NCBI GenBank assembly: GCA_013115125.1
Contig: JABANN010000314.1
Coordinates: forward strand, 1 to 40,151
Length of the DNA stretch: 40,151 bases
Reading direction: 5' to 3'
DNA from: Perkinsus olseni
Lineage: Eukaryota
Part shown: positions 11,555-19,713 of the stretch, piece by piece
Position numbering within the stretch: position 1 is the first letter of the stretch
Layout of the letters: the number at the start of each line of letters is the position of its first letter
Position numbers and translations under genes: made by a program
The notes under the pieces: model-generated
Databases searched by the model: none
Told to the model about the DNA's origin: nothing
The model's input: only the letters and a program-made list of their open reading frames with translations

Positions 11555-12029
11555 GGCAGTGGTGGTAATTCTGGGGTTTTAGGGTTCTAACGTAGAGGGG
11601 GAGATCACAAACAAAAGGAGAAGTAGTAGCACGTCGAATCAGCACAGGGGAAAGATGATGAGAATGGAAAAATGAAACTGTTAAAGCAAGACTTGAGGAG
11701 GGCGTCCAAGAGGACGACGCGATACCGTCCGCACAACGCCACAATTCATCAAATGACCGAATAGCCGACATTCTCGCGCACGCCCGATATTCTCATCCCG
11801 ACGCATCTTGAGGTCGACCTTGCTCTCGACAGAGTCCGCTCGCTCGAGTTGTCGATCCGGCACGCGATTGGCTCGTGGGGGGCCGTATGTGAGACGGTAG
11901 GCTTATTGACTCTAAGGCCGGCAAAAGCATTTGAGTCGATAAGTGTTGACGTCTTGAACAACCCCCTCTGCAGCACCCTCTCTTCCCTAGGCCACTGCCA
12001 AATCGCTCCCACTCTCCTCAGATTTAACC

Positions 12030-13358
12030 ATGTCAATGATTCAACAGGCCAAGCGCATGGGTGTCAACACCGAGGTCTTCGGTGATGCCTCCCCCTTCGG
12101 CGACCCTAACTGGTACCAGTCCTACAACTCTCCCTACTACAACGACTCCCACAAACGCCTGAGAGCCTCCATGCGCCAGCTGGTCGAGGAGAAGCTCATG
12201 CCGCATGTCCACGAGTGGGACGAGAACCTCGAGATCCCTCGCGAGGTTCATCGCATGCTCGGCCAGACCGGCATCTACGTCCTGGCTATGGGCCACCCGT
12301 ACCCGACCCAGTACCAGTCCCCTCCCGACATCCTCAAGGGCGTGCAACTCGACACCTTCCACGAGCTAGTTCTATGCGACGAGCTGGCCCGAGCTGGCAG
12401 TGGTGGTCTCGCCTGGGGGCTGGTAGGTGGGTTGACCATTGGTCTGCCTCCTGTTCTGAGGTTCGGCCCGAGGGCTATGAGGGACCGTGTCGTGCCGGAG
12501 TGTCTGTCTGGAGAGAAGATCATCTGCCTGGCTATCACTGAGCCGACCGCTGGTTCTGATGTCGCCAGTATCCGATGCAGCGCGAAGAAGTCATCTTGCG
12601 GGAAGTATTACATCGTCAACGGCGAGAAGAAGTGGATCACCAATGGTATCTGGGCTGACTACTTTACTGTAGCTGTTCGTACTGGAGGCCCCGGTATGGA
12701 TGGTATCAGTCTACTACTCATCGAGAAGACCATGCCTGGAGTGACTACTAGGAGGATGAAGTGCTCCGGCGTCTGGTCTTCGGGTACCACCTTCATCTCC
12801 TTTGACGATGTAAAGGTGCCAGTCGAGAACCTCATTGGCAAGGAGAACAAGGGCTTCAAATGCATCATGCACAACTTCAACCATGAGCGCTTGGCCCTCT
12901 GTACCCTTACCAATAGGTTCGCCCGAGTGTGCTACGAGGAGGCCCTCAAACATGCCAACAAACGCAAGACTTTCGGCAAGACTCTGGTCCAGCACCCGGT
13001 GATCCGGTTCAAGCTCGGCGAGATGGCCCGCCAGATTGAAGCGACTCACTCGTGGATGGAGCAGGTCGCGTATCAAGTTGGAACTATGCATCCTCTGGAA
13101 GCCAACATGAAGCTCGGTGGTGTTACCGCCCTATTGAAGGTTCAATGCACTAAGGTATTCGAGTACTGTGCTCGAGAGTCGGCTCAGATCTTCGGTGGAT
13201 TGTCGTACTCTAGAGGAGGTGTTGGTGAGAAGGTCGAGAGGCTCAATCGTGAGGTCAGGGCGATGGCGGTACCTGGTGGGAGCGAGGAGATCATGCTGGA
13301 TCTCGGCGTCAAGCAGATGTCAAAGCTGGCGGAGATGGCCAAGACACTCGTCGAACAG
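12030..13358 (+). CDS. Acyl-CoA dehydrogenase unit 1 (single exon; probably spliced in frame to unit 2)
   Basis: CLAITEPTAGSDV, NGEKKWITNG, NFNHER (LCAD/IVD-position Glu), RKTFGKTL, QIFGGLSY, GGSEEIML. A GT donor follows the CAG codon 13356-13358. Confidence 0.95.
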
Positions 13359-13577
13359 GTAGGAGGAATCTTTCGACTCGAACTTAGGCTCGCCGTGAGT
13401 CCGAGAGTAACCGCCCTTGGAGTTAAAAGATCCGTATAGATTTGGATCGGTATGTAGCTTATTGAGTAGCGTGCTCGTTGAGGCGTCCCGCATTTCCCTG
13501 TGCTCGGCTGCCGCTAGCAAGCGGTCAGGCCGAGACCCGTCAAATAAGGTGCTTCTTGACACTCTCTGTTCCCTCAG

Positions 13578-15017
13578 GCGGAGCAAGAGAATGCTAGCAA
13601 CAAGAAGCAGATGGCCATGGCCCGCGCCATGGGCGTCAACACTGACGTTTTCGGTGATGCAAATGCCTTTGGAGATCCTTACTGGTATCAAGCAAGTAAC
13701 AGCCCCTTCTACAACGAGAGCCACCGGAAGCTGCGGGAGTACGTCCGAGGCCTCTTCGAAAAGGAGATCATGCCGCATGTTTTCGAGTGGGATGAAAATC
13801 TGGAAATTCCTCGCGAAGTGAGCCGTTTCGTGTCCACGGTCGGGTCTTGGTGCATCCGGCCCTCTCAGGTACATCGCAAGATGGGTTCCCTCGGTCTGAC
13901 GTCATTGGCGATGGGCCACCCCTATCCTGTCGAGTACGGTAACATTCCCGACTTCCTCAAGGGTGTGAAGATAGATGTCTTCCATGAGCTCATTGTGTCT
14001 GACGAACTGTGTCGCTGCGGAAGCGGCGGGGTAGCCTGGGGGCTGGTAGGTGGGTTGACAATTGGTCTGCCTCCTGTTCTGAGGTTCGGCCCGAGGGCTA
14101 TGAGGGACCGTGTCGTGCCGGAGTGTCTGTCTGGAGAGAAGATTATCTGCTTGGCTATCACTGAGCCGACCGCGGGTTCTGATGTCGCCAATATCCGATG
14201 CAGCGCGAAGAAGTCATCTTGCGGGAAGTATTACATCGTCAACGGCGAGAAGAAGTGGATCACCAATGGTATCTGGGCTGACTACTTTACTGTAGCTGTT
14301 CGTACTGGAGGCCCCGGTATGGATGGTATCAGTCTACTACTCATCGAGAAGACCATGCCTGGAGTGACTACTAGGAGGATGAAGTGCTCCGGCGTCTGGT
14401 CTTCGGGTACCACCTTCATCTCCTTTGACGATGTAAAGGTGCCAGTCGAGAACCTCATTGGCAAGGAGAACAAGGGCTTCAAATGCATCATGCACAACTT
14501 CAACCATGAGCGCTTCGCTCTATGCGCTCAGACGAATAGGTTCGCCCGAGTGTGCTACGAGGAGGCCCTCAAACACGCCCATCGCCGCAAGACCTTTGGT
14601 AAGCCTCTCATTCAGCATCAAGTGATTCGATGGAAGCTCGCCGAGATGTCGAGACTAGTCGAGGCGACTCATGCTTGGCTAGAGAACGTTGCCTATCAGC
14701 TCTCCACTATGCATCCTCTGGAAGCCAACATGAAGCTCGGTGGTGTTACTGCCCTATTGAAGGTTCAATGCACTAAGGTATTCGAGTACTGTGCTCGAGA
14801 GTCGGCCCAGATCTTTGGTGGATTGTCGTACTCTAGAGGAGGTGTTGGTGAGAAGGTCGAGAGGCTCAATCGTGAGGTCAGGGCGATGGCCGTACCTGGT
14901 GGAAGCGAGGAGATCATGCTGGATCTTGGCGTCAGACAGATGAGGAAGTTGGCGGAGATGGCCAAGACGCTCGTGTCTGAAGCCCACCAAGGGAATGAGG
15001 CCTCCAGTCGTCTTTGA
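13578..15017 (+). CDS. Acyl-CoA dehydrogenase unit 2 with C-terminal PTS1-like -SRL; one 51-nt intron at 13818-13868
   Basis: Same ACAD motifs as unit 1. Acceptor ...TTCCCTCAG at 13577 is in frame with ATG 13611. The in-frame GTGAG...CTCTCAG insert is absent from unit 1. Ends ...NEASSRL*. Confidence 0.95.
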   Translation, partial: AEQENASNKKQMAMARAMGVNTDVFGDANAFGDPYWYQASNSPFYNESHRKLREYVRGLFEKEIMPHVFEWDENLEIPREVSRFVSTVGSWCIRPSQVHRKMGSLGLTSLAMGHPYPVEYGNIPDFLKGVKIDVFHELIVSDELCRCGSGGVAWGLVGGLTIGLPPVLRFGPRAMRDRVVPECLSGEKIICLAITEPTAGSDVANIRCSAKKSSCGKYYIVNGEKKWITNGIWADYFTVAVRTGGPGMDGISLLLIEKTMPGVTTRRMKCSGVWSSGTTFISFDDVKVPVENLIGKENKGFKCIMHNFNHERFALCAQTNRFARVCYEEALKHAHRRKTFGKPLIQHQVIRWKLAEMSRLVEATHAWLENVAYQLSTMHPLEANMKLGGVTALLKVQCTKVFEYCARESAQIFGGLSYSRGGVGEKVERLNREVRAMAVPGGSEEIMLDLGVRQMRKLAEMAKTLVSEAHQGNEASSRL

Positions 15018-15226
15018 GAAGACTGCTTACGGAAGGTCCCAAGATTTGTTTTCAATTTTTTATATCGCTGAACAGTTGCTTTCTTTTTATGATTTGTTAT
15101 CGCCTCAACGGCGTCGAAACCCTGAGTGCAAGTCCACGGCGTGGCGAATTTTTGATGGTCGAGTCGTCTTGTCGTGTTCGTGAATTCGATCTAGTTTTCG
15201 TATGTTCAGATGTCTGGTCATACAGT

Positions 15227-18200
15227 ATGCATCTCACGCCTTACCGTCATTACTACTCCGACGCGTCACCCCAGCGAGACGGCGGCGTCGCCACGAGCAA
15301 TTCGGCGATAGACGCTTTGTTGGACAAGGCAATACGGAAGCCGTCGGGCGATGGGGAAGGCTACGAGCAAGAGGAGCTGCAGAGGGCCAAGGCTGAGGTG
15401 GGACAGGCGACGCTAAGGAGTTTAAGCAGCAGCTCAGGGCCTCTTGGTTCGACTGCTCGGTGAAGGGAACAATCAGAACATGAAAAAATATTGCAGGAAT
15501 GTGGTAGTAACGAGGACCGGCGATTCCCGCGTGGGGAGCATGCGCTTCTCAGCTGAGAGTTCGTTTCCCGAAGTTGGACGAACCGCCCACGTTCGCCGAC
15601 GGTAGAGCCATCCGGGTTATAAGCCAGGCGTGTGGGGAGTCTTCCACCTCTTCGGCTGCGTGCAATACGCCGAAGACCGTCCTTCGTACGCCGGGCCGAC
15701 CGCCCATCAGGAGCGTAGCTTCAGAGACACGGAAATCCAGGATGAAACTGTTGAAGTAGAAATACCATTTCTGTCGTATTCGAGGTGTGAGCCTTCAGGA
15801 CTTCTCTTCGAGAGTGGTCCGAAGGCGCTGCATCGGCCTCTAAGCGTCGCGATGGCACGCAGCGGCTTGCTGATGCCATGGCTGCCATGCGACTGATATC
15901 CAAGTTGAAGGCTACTGCTTTGCGGCGTCTGCGAAAACATTGTTACAGGAAAGCGCAAATTGAACGGCTACAGCTCCGCTTCGCTCGGAAGGGAGATCTC
16001 GGACCCTCGGCAATCTTGCTCTGGCAGTATCCGGGATGCGTCATTGCCGCCTTTGCCAAGTGGAAGCGTTGGACGCACTGGTCCATTAGAGATTTCCCGC
16101 GGGGAGGGAATATCCTTTATTCGGCGGTGCGGAGGTTGACGATGCGTGGTGCACTGACTAGGCTTCGACTGGTCGCTCGTGTGGCGCATCGAGCTGAGCA
16201 GAGGAGGAGGCGATTTCTGGAGAGCTGCTTCGTGGCGGTGCGGCGGTACTGGAATCTCGCCATCGCTTCGGCCAAGGTTGCACGACACAATCGCGTGAGG
16301 CGGAGGTTCAAGCTCTGGTTGACCCTGGCGCATCTCACGCGGGAGGCTCGACAGGCTCACGCAATCTCCCCGGAGATGGCATCGCTCAAACGAAGAGTGG
16401 CCGTGCAGAAGATGTCACTGGCGATAAGTCCCTTGCTTCGCGCCCGGCTATCATTCGCTTTGGGTCGATGGCGCCAGAAGGTCTGCCGGTCGAAAAGCAT
16501 ACAAGGTTGGGAGAGAGAGCGCATGGGATACGAGGACCTCAGCAGCAGAGGTCAAGGCCGGCTCGAGGCCTTGAGCGCATCACTGGAGTACGAGAAGGGC
16601 CGTTGTGGCCACATAGAAGCATACCTTAAGCACGTCATCGACGAGACCCACAGGAAGCTTCAGCAAGCGCAGGTCGAGCATGACCAATTGGCCGCCCAGC
16701 ACCAGCAGTCTGTCGAGGCCCTGTCCAATAGATGCGCAGAAGGCGAGTTGGCGATGCAGAGAGCGCGGAGTCGAGGGAGGCAAGCTGCGGTGTATGTACT
16801 CCGTAGGGGCCTCTCGTGGCCCCTTGGAGACGACATACTGCTTCGGAAAGTGATCGACAGTTGGCGTTGCACAAGCAGGGCCGGCCGCGCGGCGGTGTGT
16901 CGGCTGAGACGGTTCGCTGGAGAGCAGTGGCAACGGTACAGGTGGTCGTTGGTGAGGGGCTTGAAGGCAGTCATGAGGCTCATCCAAGAGAGGAGGAGAG
17001 CCCGCATGGAGGGAGTTGTGAGAGGGACTAGTATGCTGTGGCAGAGAGTTCTCCGTCCGAGGCAAGCCCACGCTCTGTACTGCCTTTGGGCTTCCGGACC
17101 CTCTCACGCCTCTCTTGTCATACGACATACTGAGCGAGCAGAGGGAGCTATTCTGAGCTTCATTCGACGCAAGCAGCAGAGGACGGCCCTGGCGGACTGG
17201 CGGGCCAAGGCGGTTCGCGTCACCAGAAGGCAGTTCGCCTCGGCTGCTCTGTGCCGGGCCCTCACTCGACTTGTCCGTTGCCATATGCTCTCCTCTATCG
17301 CGGAGTTGAAAGCGAGGCTTGACGAGAATTGCCGGCGTCATCAGGAGCTCTGCCGAGTTCTCGATGCTCTTATGTCTACTATGAATCGTATCTTTCTACG
17401 ACGTGCGTTGTCCTTCTGGAGGGCCCGAGCTCACCACCTTGCCCGCGGCGCCGCCTCTCTGAGGACCGCTAGGAGGCAGTGGGCGACTCGCTCGCTGGTG
17501 GCGGTGACTGGCAGGAGCCAACCACGGCAGATCTACTTCAACAGCTTCGTCGAGGCGTGTAGGCTATCTCGTAGAGATCGTGGAGACCGTGCAGCTCGAG
17601 CGCTCGAAACCTGGCAGCAGGCCGCGTACGGTACAGTCCTCCGTGCGTGGTCAGCCTTGTGCCGCCGACTACGAGCAGTGCATCACCTCCGAAGGGTTCT
17701 AACTCGCTCGAAGGTCGAGCGCCTCCAGTGGGGTCTGACGGCCTTTGCTAAGTTGAGGTGGACGTCCGAGCTGAGAAGTCGGAATCTGGTCTGCCTTGCC
17801 GGCCGCCTGCAGCTCCTCATTGATCGGCACCTGCGATCGTATTTGACGCTGTGGCGGTCTAAAATCTCCAGTCAGAAATACGACGACCTCGCCCGGAGAT
17901 CGCTAGCTGCTGCTAGAGTGACCCGAATGAAGCGAAGTGCTCTCGTGAAATTACGAGGGTCTGCGCGCTTCTCCCGAGCCCTATCCCGGCTGGCCTTGGC
18001 CGTACGAAGAGCCCTACTACGGACGGGTGTCTACTGGCTCCGAAAGCAGCTGCTGAAATGCCGAATCGCGAGGTTCCTGACCAGTACTGTCCAGCAGGTG
18101 GCGTTGAAGCACAGGCTGCAGCGCACTGCTGTTGACGTTGTCACTCAACTGAGTGAGGAATCTCGTTGCCAGCGTCTCAAGGCCTGCTTCCTGGCCTGGC

Positions 18201-19713
18201 GGCGCCGCATTGAGCTTCTGCGGTCGAAGCTGACTCTAGCGTTCAAACACGTATCTTGTAATCACCATTGCTCTACACGGAATGCTTGGAGAAGATGGAT
18301 CGAGGACGTCGGCACCCAGCTGAGGAGCCAGTCAGTGTGGGCGGCTGTGAGGCAGAAGCGAGAGTACTCCCTCTCGATGGGCTTGGTAGTGCTGGCTAAA
18401 GTGCTGCAACGGGTCAAGTAAGCTCTGCCCTCCTCTTTCTGCTGTCACATGCCTGGCCGCTCAGAGCGAAGCTGCTCGCCCTCGGCTTCGCATCACTGGC
18501 CGTCCACACTGCTCGACTCAACGGTGTTGATGGTGCGAAGTCTTTCTGGACGGGACAGCTGGAGCGATCGCAGGAGGTAGTAGTGTGCTCGGGGTTGCCT
18601 GAAGCCGCGAAAGGATCTTCTTTAGAACACACGCACGGCCGAAGAGAGAGCTCGGGAATATGCCTTGAAGCTGAAGCGGGCGCACGAGGACGTTCGGGAG
18701 GCTGAGGCGAACTCAGAAGCGCAGCTTAGATCCATCAAGGATTGGCAGCAGCGTGTAGAGCAGCAAGAAGCGAGGCATTCAGAAGAGGTTGTGGGACTGA
18801 GGCAATCCCTGGCGGCGCTACAGCACACGCTGAAAAATGAGAGAGATACCAACGTCCAGCTCCGTCTTGAGGCAGGGCAATCCGAGGCAAAAATAGAAGT
18901 GGGAAAATATCTTTTTCGAGCGGCAGTCAGGGAGGTAGTACCGTCAGGCACTCTCGCGAGACGTCGATCGGGAGAGTCGAGACAGGCTGGTCCTTGCCGG
19001 GGAGGTGGGGAGGCTGCGGTCCAGCGAGGTGGATGTGTTGTCGGCTAAGCGCGAGATAGAGTCTATCGAGGCTGCCAAGAAGGAGACAGAAGACCGCGCC
19101 CGGCAGTATGAACAGGAGATCGGAAAGTGGAAGCTGATGGTATCCTTTTTGCCGTTCGAAAATGTACTCTTCTTGCAGATTGCGGCAGAGTGTGTCGGAG
19201 TGGAAGCAGCGAGCTGAGGCCCAAGAAAAGAAGGAGGGCGACCATCTCAGGAAGCTGCAGGAGCGCCACAGCTTCTACAAGCAAAAATGCAACCTCCAGG
19301 AGCACCAAGTTCGTCCGTTTTTCCACTCAACGCTATCCATCTCTCCGTGTCAGATCGCGGGCCTTCGAAGTCAGCTCGAGAGTGTCGAGACGGACCTCCG
19401 CGAGAGTCATCGGGCACTGCTGGAGTGGCAGCAGAATTCAGTCGACATGCTCAACATCAACAGCGGAGGGCTCAACACCGCGTCCTCCCTTCCCAACTTC
19501 TCCAACAGCCCTGCTGGTGGCCTCTCGACGACCAGTGCTCTCGCAGGCCTCGCTGAGGCAATCGAGCGAGTAATAGAGCTGCCCAGCTTTATGTGCCTCG
19601 TATCACGCTCTTGTCAGATTTCTCACGGCAATGGCAGCGACATCCGGGAGTCTCCAAAAGTAGCGAAGCGTGCAGCGAAGAGCCGGCCCAACAGATTACC
19701 TCCTAGGCGGTGA
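15227..19713 (+). CDS. Large Arg/Trp-rich protein with Sfi1-like repeats and a C-terminal coiled coil, multi-exon
   Basis: The 847-aa ORF 15878..18421 has recurrent [F/L]xxW[R/K] units (FAKWKR, LGRWRQ, IDSWRC, LADWRA, LSFWRA, LTLWRS, FLAWRR). E/K/Q-rich heptad exons lie at 18630-19440. Ends PNRLPPRR* at 19713. Start at 15227 is inferred. Confidence 0.6.

What the first reader, a model, noticed from the sequence alone, without database searches (positions are those of the whole stretch)
12030..15017. Two acyl-CoA dehydrogenases appear spliced into one double-ACAD polypeptide with a single peroxisomal signal
Seen: unit 1 homology ends ...AKTLVEQ, followed by a phase-0 GT at 13359. A pyrimidine-rich CAG acceptor at 13575-13577 resumes AEQENASNKKQMAMARAMG in frame with unit 2 (13578+33=13611). 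The linker EQAEQENAS resembles the unit 2 tail SEAHQGNEASSRL. The predicted product is ~900 aa with two complete ACAD units and one C-terminal SRL. Established: ACADs are normally dimers or tetramers of single-unit chains, -SRL is a canonical PTS1, and peroxisomal beta-oxidation normally starts with an acyl-CoA oxidase. Inference: a covalent pseudo-dimer ACAD imported into peroxisomes. The same AG could alternatively act as a trans-splice acceptor giving a unit-2-only mRNA.
Basis: partly seen in the sequence, partly recalled or inferred. Interest (0 to 1): 0.75.

Follow-up and report, generated by a model that had tools for sequence, protein, structure and literature searches.

The report
Two-unit fatty-acid enzyme of Perkinsus
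A clam parasite makes one long enzyme chain holding two copies of a fatty-acid-oxidising unit, whose catalytic cores are kept nearly identical while other surfaces stay different; in uncultured relatives the second copy has lost its catalytic motifs.

Summary
Confirmed. The 905-aa product ends -SRL and is identical to an annotated Perkinsus olseni protein; P. marinus and P. chesapeaki have orthologs. It is one internally duplicated gene, not two genes spliced together: the intron interrupts the duplicated tail. Both units keep the FAD motifs and the helix-G glutamate. Their cores are homogenised by gene conversion (10 of 220 synonymous codons differ, against 59 of 119 elsewhere); the N-terminal domain and helices G-H stay unit-specific. 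AlphaFold packs the units across the dimer-dimer face, like the extra domains of VLCAD and methylsuccinyl-CoA dehydrogenase, so two chains probably form a pseudo-tetramer. Thirteen related environmental doubles have a degenerate unit 2. Fused ACADs (CasC) and peroxisomal ACADs are already known, single-unit relatives also end in PTS1-like tails, and the genome has an oxidase-like gene. Verdict: new variant of a known kind.

The parts
12012..12021 (+). Probable spliced-leader trans-splice acceptor of the gene (pyrimidine run + AG), 8 nt before the ATG
   Evidence: Inference: X1 contig is laid from 12020 with 4 letters unlaid, X4 contig starts at 12022 (table 8); sequence. The unlaid letters were not shown.
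12030..13358 (+). Exon 1, codons 1-443: ACAD unit 1
12414..12890 (+). Converted core 1 of unit 1 (codons 129-287): 5 of 477 nt differ from unit 2; holds the TEPxxGSD and KxWITNG motifs
12885..12887 (+). Glu286 in FNHER, the helix-G (IVD/LCAD-type) catalytic base position of unit 1
   Evidence: IVD-type position described in PMC5798300 passage; the assignment is inference
12891..13085 (+). Unit-specific segment (codons 288-352, helices G-H): 18 of 65 aa differ from unit 2, but only 3 of 65 from P. marinus unit 1
13086..13310 (+). Converted core 2 of unit 1 (codons 353-427): 0 aa and 6 of 225 nt differ from unit 2
13359..13577 (+). Intron 1, 219 nt, GT..AG, phase 0, single copy in the genome; holds the read-through stop 13437-13439
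13578..13817 (+). Exon 2, codons 444-523: rest of the unit-1 tail, linker helix, start of unit 2
13818..13868 (+).
13869..15017 (+). Exon 3, codons 524-905 and stop: rest of ACAD unit 2
14508..14510 (+). Glu737 in FNHER, catalytic base position of unit 2
15006..15014 (+). C-terminal Ser-Arg-Leu, PTS1-type signal, kept in P. olseni, P. marinus and P. chesapeaki
   Evidence: that SRL is a canonical PTS1 is recalled knowledge
15018..15160 (+). 3' untranslated region covered by RNA contigs
   Evidence: table 8 (contigs end at 15137 and 15160)

Best explanation
One gene that arose by internal tandem duplication of a peroxisome-targeted acyl-CoA dehydrogenase. SHOWN: two cis introns are removed and give a 905-aa chain with two complete units and one C-terminal SRL; the chain is conserved across Perkinsus; both units keep all six motifs checked; the cores evolve in concert while the N-terminal domain, helices G-H and the tail stay unit-specific. 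INFERRED from the model: the linker joins the two units across the dimer-dimer face of the classic ACAD tetramer. Each FAD site is then completed by a second chain, and the enzyme is a dimer of chains, a pseudo-tetramer with four active sites of two kinds. INFERRED from conservation: gene conversion keeps the FAD-binding core uniform, and selection preserves the unit-specific segments, which include helix H (the recalled dimer-dimer contact) and pocket-lining positions, so the two sites may differ in acyl chain preference. INFERRED from the signal and the paper's inventory: it is imported by Pex5 and does the first step of peroxisomal beta-oxidation as a dehydrogenase, beside three single-unit paralogs and one oxidase-like protein. 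The electron acceptor is unknown; a cytochrome b5 / fumarate-reductase module is the best lead. My odds by step: gene structure 0.97, gene conversion 0.9, peroxisomal 0.8, dimer-of-chains geometry 0.75, two different specificities 0.4.
For: Junctions in 4 of 4 runs. Identity to P0095; 905-aa P. marinus and 846-aa P. chesapeaki records. Six motifs present twice. Synonymous differences between units: 4 of 149 and 6 of 71 in the cores, 41 of 74 and 18 of 45 outside; longest identical run 324 nt. Across three species, 9 columns where both units share a species-specific residue, all in the cores; 34 unit-fixed columns, all outside (gapped columns skipped). R148/R599 against K148/K599 changes in both units between P. 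olseni records. RNA contigs break where the shared core begins and carry no other letters, so the near-identity is also in cDNA. Model: pLDDT 83.7, pTM 0.86. Methylsuccinyl-CoA dehydrogenase 8ciw_A aligns 528 of 555 residues over model 282-890 (Z 30.8, rmsd 2.9), 6es9_A 517 of 545 over 279-883 (Z 30.4, rmsd 2.8), and the 587-aa chain 3owa_C 540 residues over 29-885 (Z 30.8, rmsd 2.5); the extra domain of MCD and of VLCAD mimics the dimer-dimer interface (PMC5798300 passages). P. olseni has Pex5 and PTS-bearing multifunctional enzymes and thiolase; ACOX and catalase were scored absent from its transcriptome (PMC5755239 Tables 1-2). A Chromera relative (59% identical) is a fusion of FAD_binding_2, two b5 domains and ACAD.
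Against: No localisation, activity or oligomer data. The geometry rests on one AlphaFold2 monomer model from 17 sequences, read through alignment ranges and not coordinates. An ACOX-like gene ending GKL is in the genome, against the idea that this enzyme fills a missing step. None of the long FRD/b5 ORFs I cut out ends in a PTS1-like tail as a raw ORF (exon structures not resolved), so no peroxisomal electron acceptor is identified. Contigs cannot show a full-length transcript from 12030 to 15017 and drop rare isoforms. The P. chesapeaki model lacks about 59 residues of unit 2, including the catalytic Glu; a gene-model error is likely but was not checked.
Confidence: 0.7

Rival explanations
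1. Covalent pseudo-dimer in the first reader's sense: the two linked units form the FAD-sharing dimer inside one chain.
For: CasC has two fused ACAD domains, the N-terminal one needed for FAD binding and the C-terminal one catalytic (PMC8399759 passage). Both Perkinsus units keep the partner-donated RxxFG and QxxGG motifs. The linker region has lower pLDDT, about 55-67.
Against: The model matches MCD and a VLCAD-length chain across both units. In 13 environmental doubles unit 2 lacks QxxGG (13 of 13) and mostly RxxFG (11 of 13) while unit 1 keeps them (12 and 13 of 13), so unit 1 must get its FAD partner from another unit 1.
Confidence: 0.15
2. Mixed locus: besides the fused mRNA, intron retention gives a 469-aa unit 1 without PTS1, and trans-splicing at 13577 gives a unit-2-only enzyme with PTS1.
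For: The read-through frame stays open 26 codons into the intron; an ATG at 13611 would start a complete unit; Perkinsus trans-splices (PMC9399869 passage). Contigs drop rare forms.
Against: Depth 0 at 13378-13504 and no loose end at 13578 in 4 of 4 runs, while a leader end shows at 11679 in X1. Exon 2 begins with tail-like sequence (11 of 15) and does not resemble the unit-1 leader (5 of 24).
Confidence: 0.1
3. The enzyme is a peroxisomal oxidase with an ACAD fold (like Arabidopsis ACX4) that passes electrons to oxygen.
For: ACX4 chains (2ix5, 2ix6) align to the environmental relative's unit at Z about 40, among many ACADs, so the fold allows it. A peroxisome has no known ETF (recalled).
Against: Catalase was scored absent in the P. 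olseni transcriptome. Close relatives are fused to cytochrome b5 and FAD_binding_2 domains, which points to a protein acceptor.
Confidence: 0.15
4. The unit-specific segments are only where conversion tracts happen to stop; the duplication is nearly neutral and the two sites are equivalent.
For: Introns and diverged flanks can block conversion without selection (established knowledge); unit 2's N-terminal part holds an intron. P. olseni has another tandem-unit oxidoreductase ORF.
Against: Codons 288-352 lie between two converted blocks with no intron, differ at 18 of 65 aa between units, yet at only 3 and 1 of 65 between P. olseni and P. marinus.
Confidence: 0.3
5. The near-identity of the cores is an assembly or polishing artefact.
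For: Short-read assemblies can homogenise repeats (established knowledge).
Against: Independently assembled RNA contigs match with no other letters and branch at the core borders; species-specific residues are shared by both units in three species.
Confidence: 0.03

Closest known systems
Annotated Perkinsus proteins KAF4662633.1, KAF4680313.1, KAF4696285.1 (P. olseni), XP_002780315.1 (P. marinus), KAF4674911.1 (P. chesapeaki)
   Same: The same protein or its ortholog; the fused model is already in NCBI/UniRef as hypothetical protein or putative acyl-CoA dehydrogenase.
   Different: The names given do not mention two units; I found no paper on it.
CasC of Rhodococcus jostii (and, recalled, FadE34/ChsE3 of mycobacteria)
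   Same: Two ACAD domains in one chain (PMC8399759 passage).
   Different: In CasC only the C-terminal domain has the catalytic Glu. Here both units are complete and near-identical in the core. Bacterial steroid enzyme, no PTS1.
VLCAD, methylsuccinyl-CoA dehydrogenase, acyl-CoA oxidases
   Same: Dimer of chains in which a duplicated part fills the dimer-dimer face of the tetramer (PMC5798300 passages); the model superposes across both units.
   Different: They keep only a ~170-180-aa helical extra domain; here the whole unit is duplicated.
PTS1-bearing single-unit ACADs of fungi, dinoflagellates and chromerids, often fused to cytochrome b5
   Same: Same subfamily: about 70% identity in core 1 to dinoflagellate-type singles, 59% to the Chromera ACAD domain; PTS1-like ends. 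Peroxisomal ACADs are in print for fungi (PMC2761260 and bioRxiv 10.1101/190546 passages).
   Different: One unit per chain. The papers name ACD11-type enzymes; I did not test whether this subfamily is among them.
Environmental double ACADs P0005-P0011, P0013-P0017, P0112 (unnamed eukaryotes)
   Same: Two units, similar linker, PTS1-like ends (11 of 13 fit the recalled consensus); group with the Perkinsus units at 85/80 support.
   Different: Unit 2 lacks TEPxxGSD, KxWITNG and QxxGG in 13 of 13; the one locus read is intronless, beside ArfGAP and SNARE genes.
Foraminiferan (P0020, P0021, P0107) and Bacteroidota / Turneriella (P0048, P0082) double ACADs
   Same: Two ACAD units in about 780-830 aa; P0020 and P0107 keep all five motifs tested in both units and end AKL and SKL.
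   Different: The foraminiferan units form their own branch, so a separate duplication; the bacterial ones are 29-33% identical and were not put in the tree.

Membership tests
Acyl-CoA dehydrogenase family | N-terminal helical, middle beta and C-terminal helical domains | tested here: met
   Pfam PF02771, PF02770, PF00441 over cut-off in both units; Z 33.5, rmsd 1.5, 376 aligned to 3r7k_A
Acyl-CoA dehydrogenase family | FAD-binding motifs and a catalytic glutamate | tested here: met
   Six motifs found twice; Glu at the helix-G position, Gly at the MCAD position. Motif roles are recalled.
Acyl-CoA dehydrogenase family | Dehydrogenates acyl-CoA and passes electrons to a protein acceptor rather than oxygen | not testable with these tools
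   No activity data
Acyl-CoA dehydrogenase family | Homotetramer of ~43-kDa single-unit chains (classic members) | tested here: not met
   One 905-aa chain with two units; it works like a tetramer only by inference
CasC/FadE34-type fused ACADs | Two ACAD domains in one chain | tested here: met
CasC/FadE34-type fused ACADs | Catalytic Glu only in the C-terminal domain; N-terminal domain serves FAD binding | tested here: not met
   Both units have the Glu and all motifs; definition from PMC8399759
VLCAD/MCD-type dimeric ACADs | A duplicated helical domain of the same chain occupies the dimer-dimer face | tested here: met
   In the predicted model only: 8ciw_A, 6es9_A, 3owa_C span both units
VLCAD/MCD-type dimeric ACADs | Extra part is a ~170-180-aa non-catalytic domain | tested here: not met
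   The extra part is a full ~450-aa unit with intact motifs
Acyl-CoA oxidase (ACOX) family | ACOX Pfam domains (PF01756, PF22924) | tested here: not met
   Not among the four families matched by either unit at E 0.001
PTS1 peroxisomal matrix proteins | C-terminal PTS1 tripeptide, conserved, in an organism with Pex5 | tested here: met
   SRL in three species; Pex5 in P. olseni per PMC5755239 Table 1; tail 896-905 has pLDDT under 50, i.e. free
PTS1 peroxisomal matrix proteins | Actually imported into peroxisomes | not testable with these tools
   No localisation data

The most novel reading that the evidence does not exclude
This clade shows living intermediates of the route proposed for VLCAD, MCD and acyl-CoA oxidases. 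One ancient duplication across the dimer-dimer face gave a double ACAD. Perkinsus keeps both units active because gene conversion keeps repairing the second core while selection protects the contact and pocket segments. A sister group of uncultured eukaryotes let the second unit decay into a scaffold. The enzyme would start a peroxide-free peroxisomal beta-oxidation, with electrons leaving through a cytochrome b5 / fumarate-reductase module, in a parasite reported to lack catalase.
Probability: 0.25. Interest if true: 0.72.

Novelty: new variant of a known kind. Interest (0 to 1): 0.5.

Why it matters
Fused ACADs and peroxisomal ACADs are each known, and this protein is already in the databases, so the fusion alone is a modest surprise. 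What a specialist would value: (1) a double ACAD with two intact active sites whose halves evolve as a mosaic, with sharp borders between converted and protected segments; (2) a related set of doubles with a degenerate second unit, which makes the partial-duplication account of VLCAD and MCD testable on natural intermediates; (3) a candidate first step for peroxisomal beta-oxidation in a shellfish parasite whose transcriptome was reported to lack oxidase and catalase, with a lead on the electron acceptor.

Tried and rejected
Spacer-turned-intron origin (new donor plus the old trans-splice acceptor of gene 2): rejected, exon 2 starts with tail-like sequence (11 of 15) and not leader-like sequence (5 of 24). 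Single origin of the Perkinsus and environmental fusions: unresolved. On the unconverted segments (42 rows, 175 columns) the best tree joins the Perkinsus units weakly (74/45); grouping unit 2 with unit 2 (p-AU 0.32) or unit 1 with unit 1 (p-AU 0.36) is not rejected; unit-diagnostic sites are 15 concordant, 9 discordant (four environmental units left out). The 86-row tree is the quick version, the careful search did not finish; it used 24 of the 80 loci and 16 hand-picked single proteins, and left out P0111, where no linker was found. Inter-unit geometry of an environmental double: model pLDDT 81.7, pTM 0.83, but no MCD- or VLCAD-type chain came into the 50 rows shown, so untested. Catalase: 0 candidates in G000, weak, because the ETF family also gave no match and the search misses intron-rich genes. 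Effrenium doubles and triple (P0004, P0105, P0106): the P0004 and P0106 repeats read as identical by eye and the records differ in repeat number, probably mis-joined tandem genes; not counted. P0012 (Gonapodya) looks like two joined b5-ACAD genes; not counted. No solved chain with two full units among the 50 sequence matches or the rows shown. Contig depths were not used to rank parts of the gene. Paper searches returned unrelated papers; PMC5737649 has no mention of Perkinsus or ACAD; two look-ups for the ChsE3/FadE34 paper found it not held. Earlier scan findings: none. No complex prediction was sent: two chains exceed the size limit, and single units would pass by likeness to solved ACADs.
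Full report
WHAT IS THERE. The window is contig C2370 of G000. The best protein match is Perkinsus olseni, 99% identical. Two long frames, 11991-13439 and 13560-15017, each encode a full ACAD unit.

THE SPLICE IS REAL. Twenty of 24 listed runs hold the stretch; I could lay four, from four studies (X1 on record as RNA, the other three guessed RNA). All four have a contig that skips 219 nt, GT..AG, and all four skip a second, 51-nt intron at 13818-13868. In X1, X2 and X3 one 583-nt contig runs from 13238 to 14090 across both joints without other letters. The bin 13378-13504 has no cover in any run, and there is no loose end at 13578. X1 does show a loose end at 11679 that is the reverse complement of the 3' part of the Perkinsus spliced leader printed in PMC9399869 (passages seen), so leader ends can be visible in these contigs. 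Contigs drop rare forms and none spans the whole gene. The spliced reading is 905 aa and identical to P0095. The cluster of 11 members includes three other 905-aa records (two P. olseni, one P. marinus), one 846-aa P. chesapeaki record and partial ones.

ONE DUPLICATED GENE, NOT TWO JOINED GENES. In the register fixed by the upstream alignment, the first 15 nt of exon 2 match the tail of unit 2 at 11 positions (p 1.7e-4). The intron start matches at 3, and exon 2 matches the unit-1 leader at 5 of 24. So the intron interrupts the duplicated tail and the true fusion point lies a few codons further on. The linker's AxxMGxN stretch is the subfamily's own N-terminal extension, also present at the start of unit 1 and of the Effrenium unit.

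MOSAIC EVOLUTION OF THE UNITS. Between the units, codons 129-287 differ at 5 of 477 nt and codons 353-427 at 6 of 225, whereas codons 4-128 differ at 135 of 375 and 288-352 at 54 of 195. Synonymous differences are 4 of 149, 6 of 71, 41 of 74 and 18 of 45. Across P. olseni, P. marinus and P. chesapeaki, 9 columns have a species-specific residue in both units, all in the two cores; 34 columns are fixed by unit, all outside (columns with gaps skipped, which hides part of the P. chesapeaki unit 2). One such double change separates P. olseni records (148/599). This is gene conversion. RNA contigs branch at the core borders and match without other letters, so it is not only an assembly effect. The segment 288-352 sits between converted blocks and differs at 18 of 65 aa between units but at 3 and 1 of 65 between species, which suggests selection for unit-specific sequence (inference). 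Helix letters are my labels, from recall, on the predicted secondary structure.

HOW IT PROBABLY WORKS. Both units have TEPxxGSD, KxWITNG, FNHER, RKTFG, QIFGG and PGGSEE. The MCAD-type base position is Gly and the helix-G Glu is present, the IVD-type arrangement (PMC5798300 passages; the mapping is my inference). AlphaFold2 gives pLDDT 83.7 and pTM 0.86 for the whole chain. Structural alignment spans both units for methylsuccinyl-CoA dehydrogenase (8ciw_A, 528 residues, rmsd 2.9, Z 30.8, model 282-890; 6es9_A, 517, 2.8, 30.4) and for the 587-aa chain 3owa_C (540, 2.5, 30.8, model 29-885). [quoted passage not shown] So in the model the linked units face each other as across the dimer-dimer contact, and FAD sites need a second chain: a dimer of chains with four sites. 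This is a prediction read from alignment ranges.

PEROXISOME. SRL is kept in three species. PMC5755239 (section 11 and passages seen; supplements not opened, and Table S1 may bear on this) reports peroxins including Pex5 and PTS-bearing multifunctional enzymes and thiolase in P. olseni, with ACOX and catalase absent from the transcriptome. Against a simple replacement story, G000 has an ACOX-like gene on C2292 with PF22924 and PF01756 over cut-off, ending GKL. PTS1-like ends are usual here: 29 of 40 single-unit rows fit the recalled consensus (one, P0131, is probably a fragment of a double), and the three paralogs end AGKL, MSKI and DSKL. Peroxisomal ACADs are in print for fungi (PMC2761260 and bioRxiv 10.1101/190546, passages seen). 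For the acceptor, many relatives carry cytochrome b5, and Chromera P0030, P0022 and P0032 are FAD_binding_2 + b5 + ACAD fusions. P. olseni encodes the FRD-b5 part separately at several loci, but none of the long raw ORFs I cut out ends in a PTS1-like tail. This is a lead only.

RELATIVES. The search among 777-2215-aa proteins gave 92 hits. Thirteen environmental doubles could be split at a similar linker. Unit 1 keeps its motifs (TEPxxGSD 13 of 13, KxWITNG 12, helix-G Glu 13, RxxFG 13, QxxGG 12); unit 2 has lost TEPxxGSD, KxWITNG and QxxGG in 13 of 13, with RxxFG in 2 and the Glu pattern in 3 by regular expression (by eye 5 of the 12 keep HER). The one locus recovered is an intronless ORF beside ArfGAP and SNARE genes, and ArfGAP relatives come from contigs of the same lengths as nine of the double-ACAD records: one unnamed eukaryote group. 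They group with the Perkinsus units at 85/80, beside dinoflagellate-type singles; one or two origins of the fusion is unresolved. Foraminifera have their own doubles, and Bacteroidota and Turneriella have distant ones. The profile search over 1.84 billion representatives had P0009 on top and a few other two-stretch proteins of 760-800 aa among the best 150.

WHAT IS KNOWN. CasC is a two-domain ACAD with one catalytic Glu (PMC8399759, passages seen). Classic ACADs are tetramers or dimers (PMC6678751 and PMC5798300, passages seen). I found no paper on the Perkinsus protein: the search for Perkinsus + peroxisom + acyl-CoA dehydrogenase gave 2 papers, unrelated by title and abstract start; the search for tandem, fused or duplicated ACAD phrases gave 9 papers, 7 listed, none on it by listing; one search listed none on it either. 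The library lacks most subscription journals.

VERDICT. Observation confirmed; interpretation partly supported. It is a member of the ACAD family by domains and motifs, not of the CasC type (both units complete) and not of the VLCAD/MCD type (whole unit duplicated), though it probably works like the latter in quaternary layout. New variant of a known kind. Interest 0.5.

Noticed in passing
window 11679 and below, minus strand: Divergent neighbour gene with an N-terminal RHA motif like a histidine phosphatase (recalled motif, not scanned); run X1 shows the spliced-leader end joined at 11679.
   Followed up: partly
L013:1468-3444 (G000:C2292, minus strand): Acyl-CoA-oxidase-like gene ending GKL, although PMC5755239 Table 2 scores ACOX absent in P. 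olseni. Expression not checked.
   Followed up: partly
L111:746-7093 (G000:C1037, minus strand): Uninterrupted 2115-aa ORF with three tandem fumarate-reductase-like units, three cytochrome b5 domains and a hydrophobic C-terminal part: a second multi-unit oxidoreductase chain, matching the N-terminal part of the Chromera FRD-b5-ACAD fusion.
   Followed up: partly
L113, L114, L115 (G000:C114, C2359, C2728): Long ORFs with 3 to 8 HPGG (cytochrome b5) motifs each.
   Followed up: no
P0030, P0022, P0032: FAD_binding_2 + cytochrome b5 + ACAD fusions in Chromera, an unnamed protist transcriptome and Bifiguratus suggest a self-contained acyl-CoA to fumarate electron chain.
   Followed up: partly
L014:181-4197 and contigs of P0005-P0017: Unnamed eukaryote group with compact genes; ArfGAP beside the double ACAD, with a SNARE gene next to it in L014.
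   Followed up: partly
P0020, P0021, P0107, P0018, P0019: Separate family of double ACADs in foraminifera and unnamed sources, most ending AKL or SKL.
   Followed up: partly
P0043-P0062, P0078-P0090: Many ~780-800-aa proteins with ACAD domains in Bacteroidota, Turneriella and unnamed sources; P0048 has two stretches per domain.
   Followed up: no
P0100 (P. chesapeaki): The gene model lacks about 59 residues of unit 2, including the catalytic Glu; probably a false intron in the annotation.
   Followed up: no
window 15791-18421, plus strand: 876-aa stop-to-stop frame downstream with no Pfam match.
   Followed up: no
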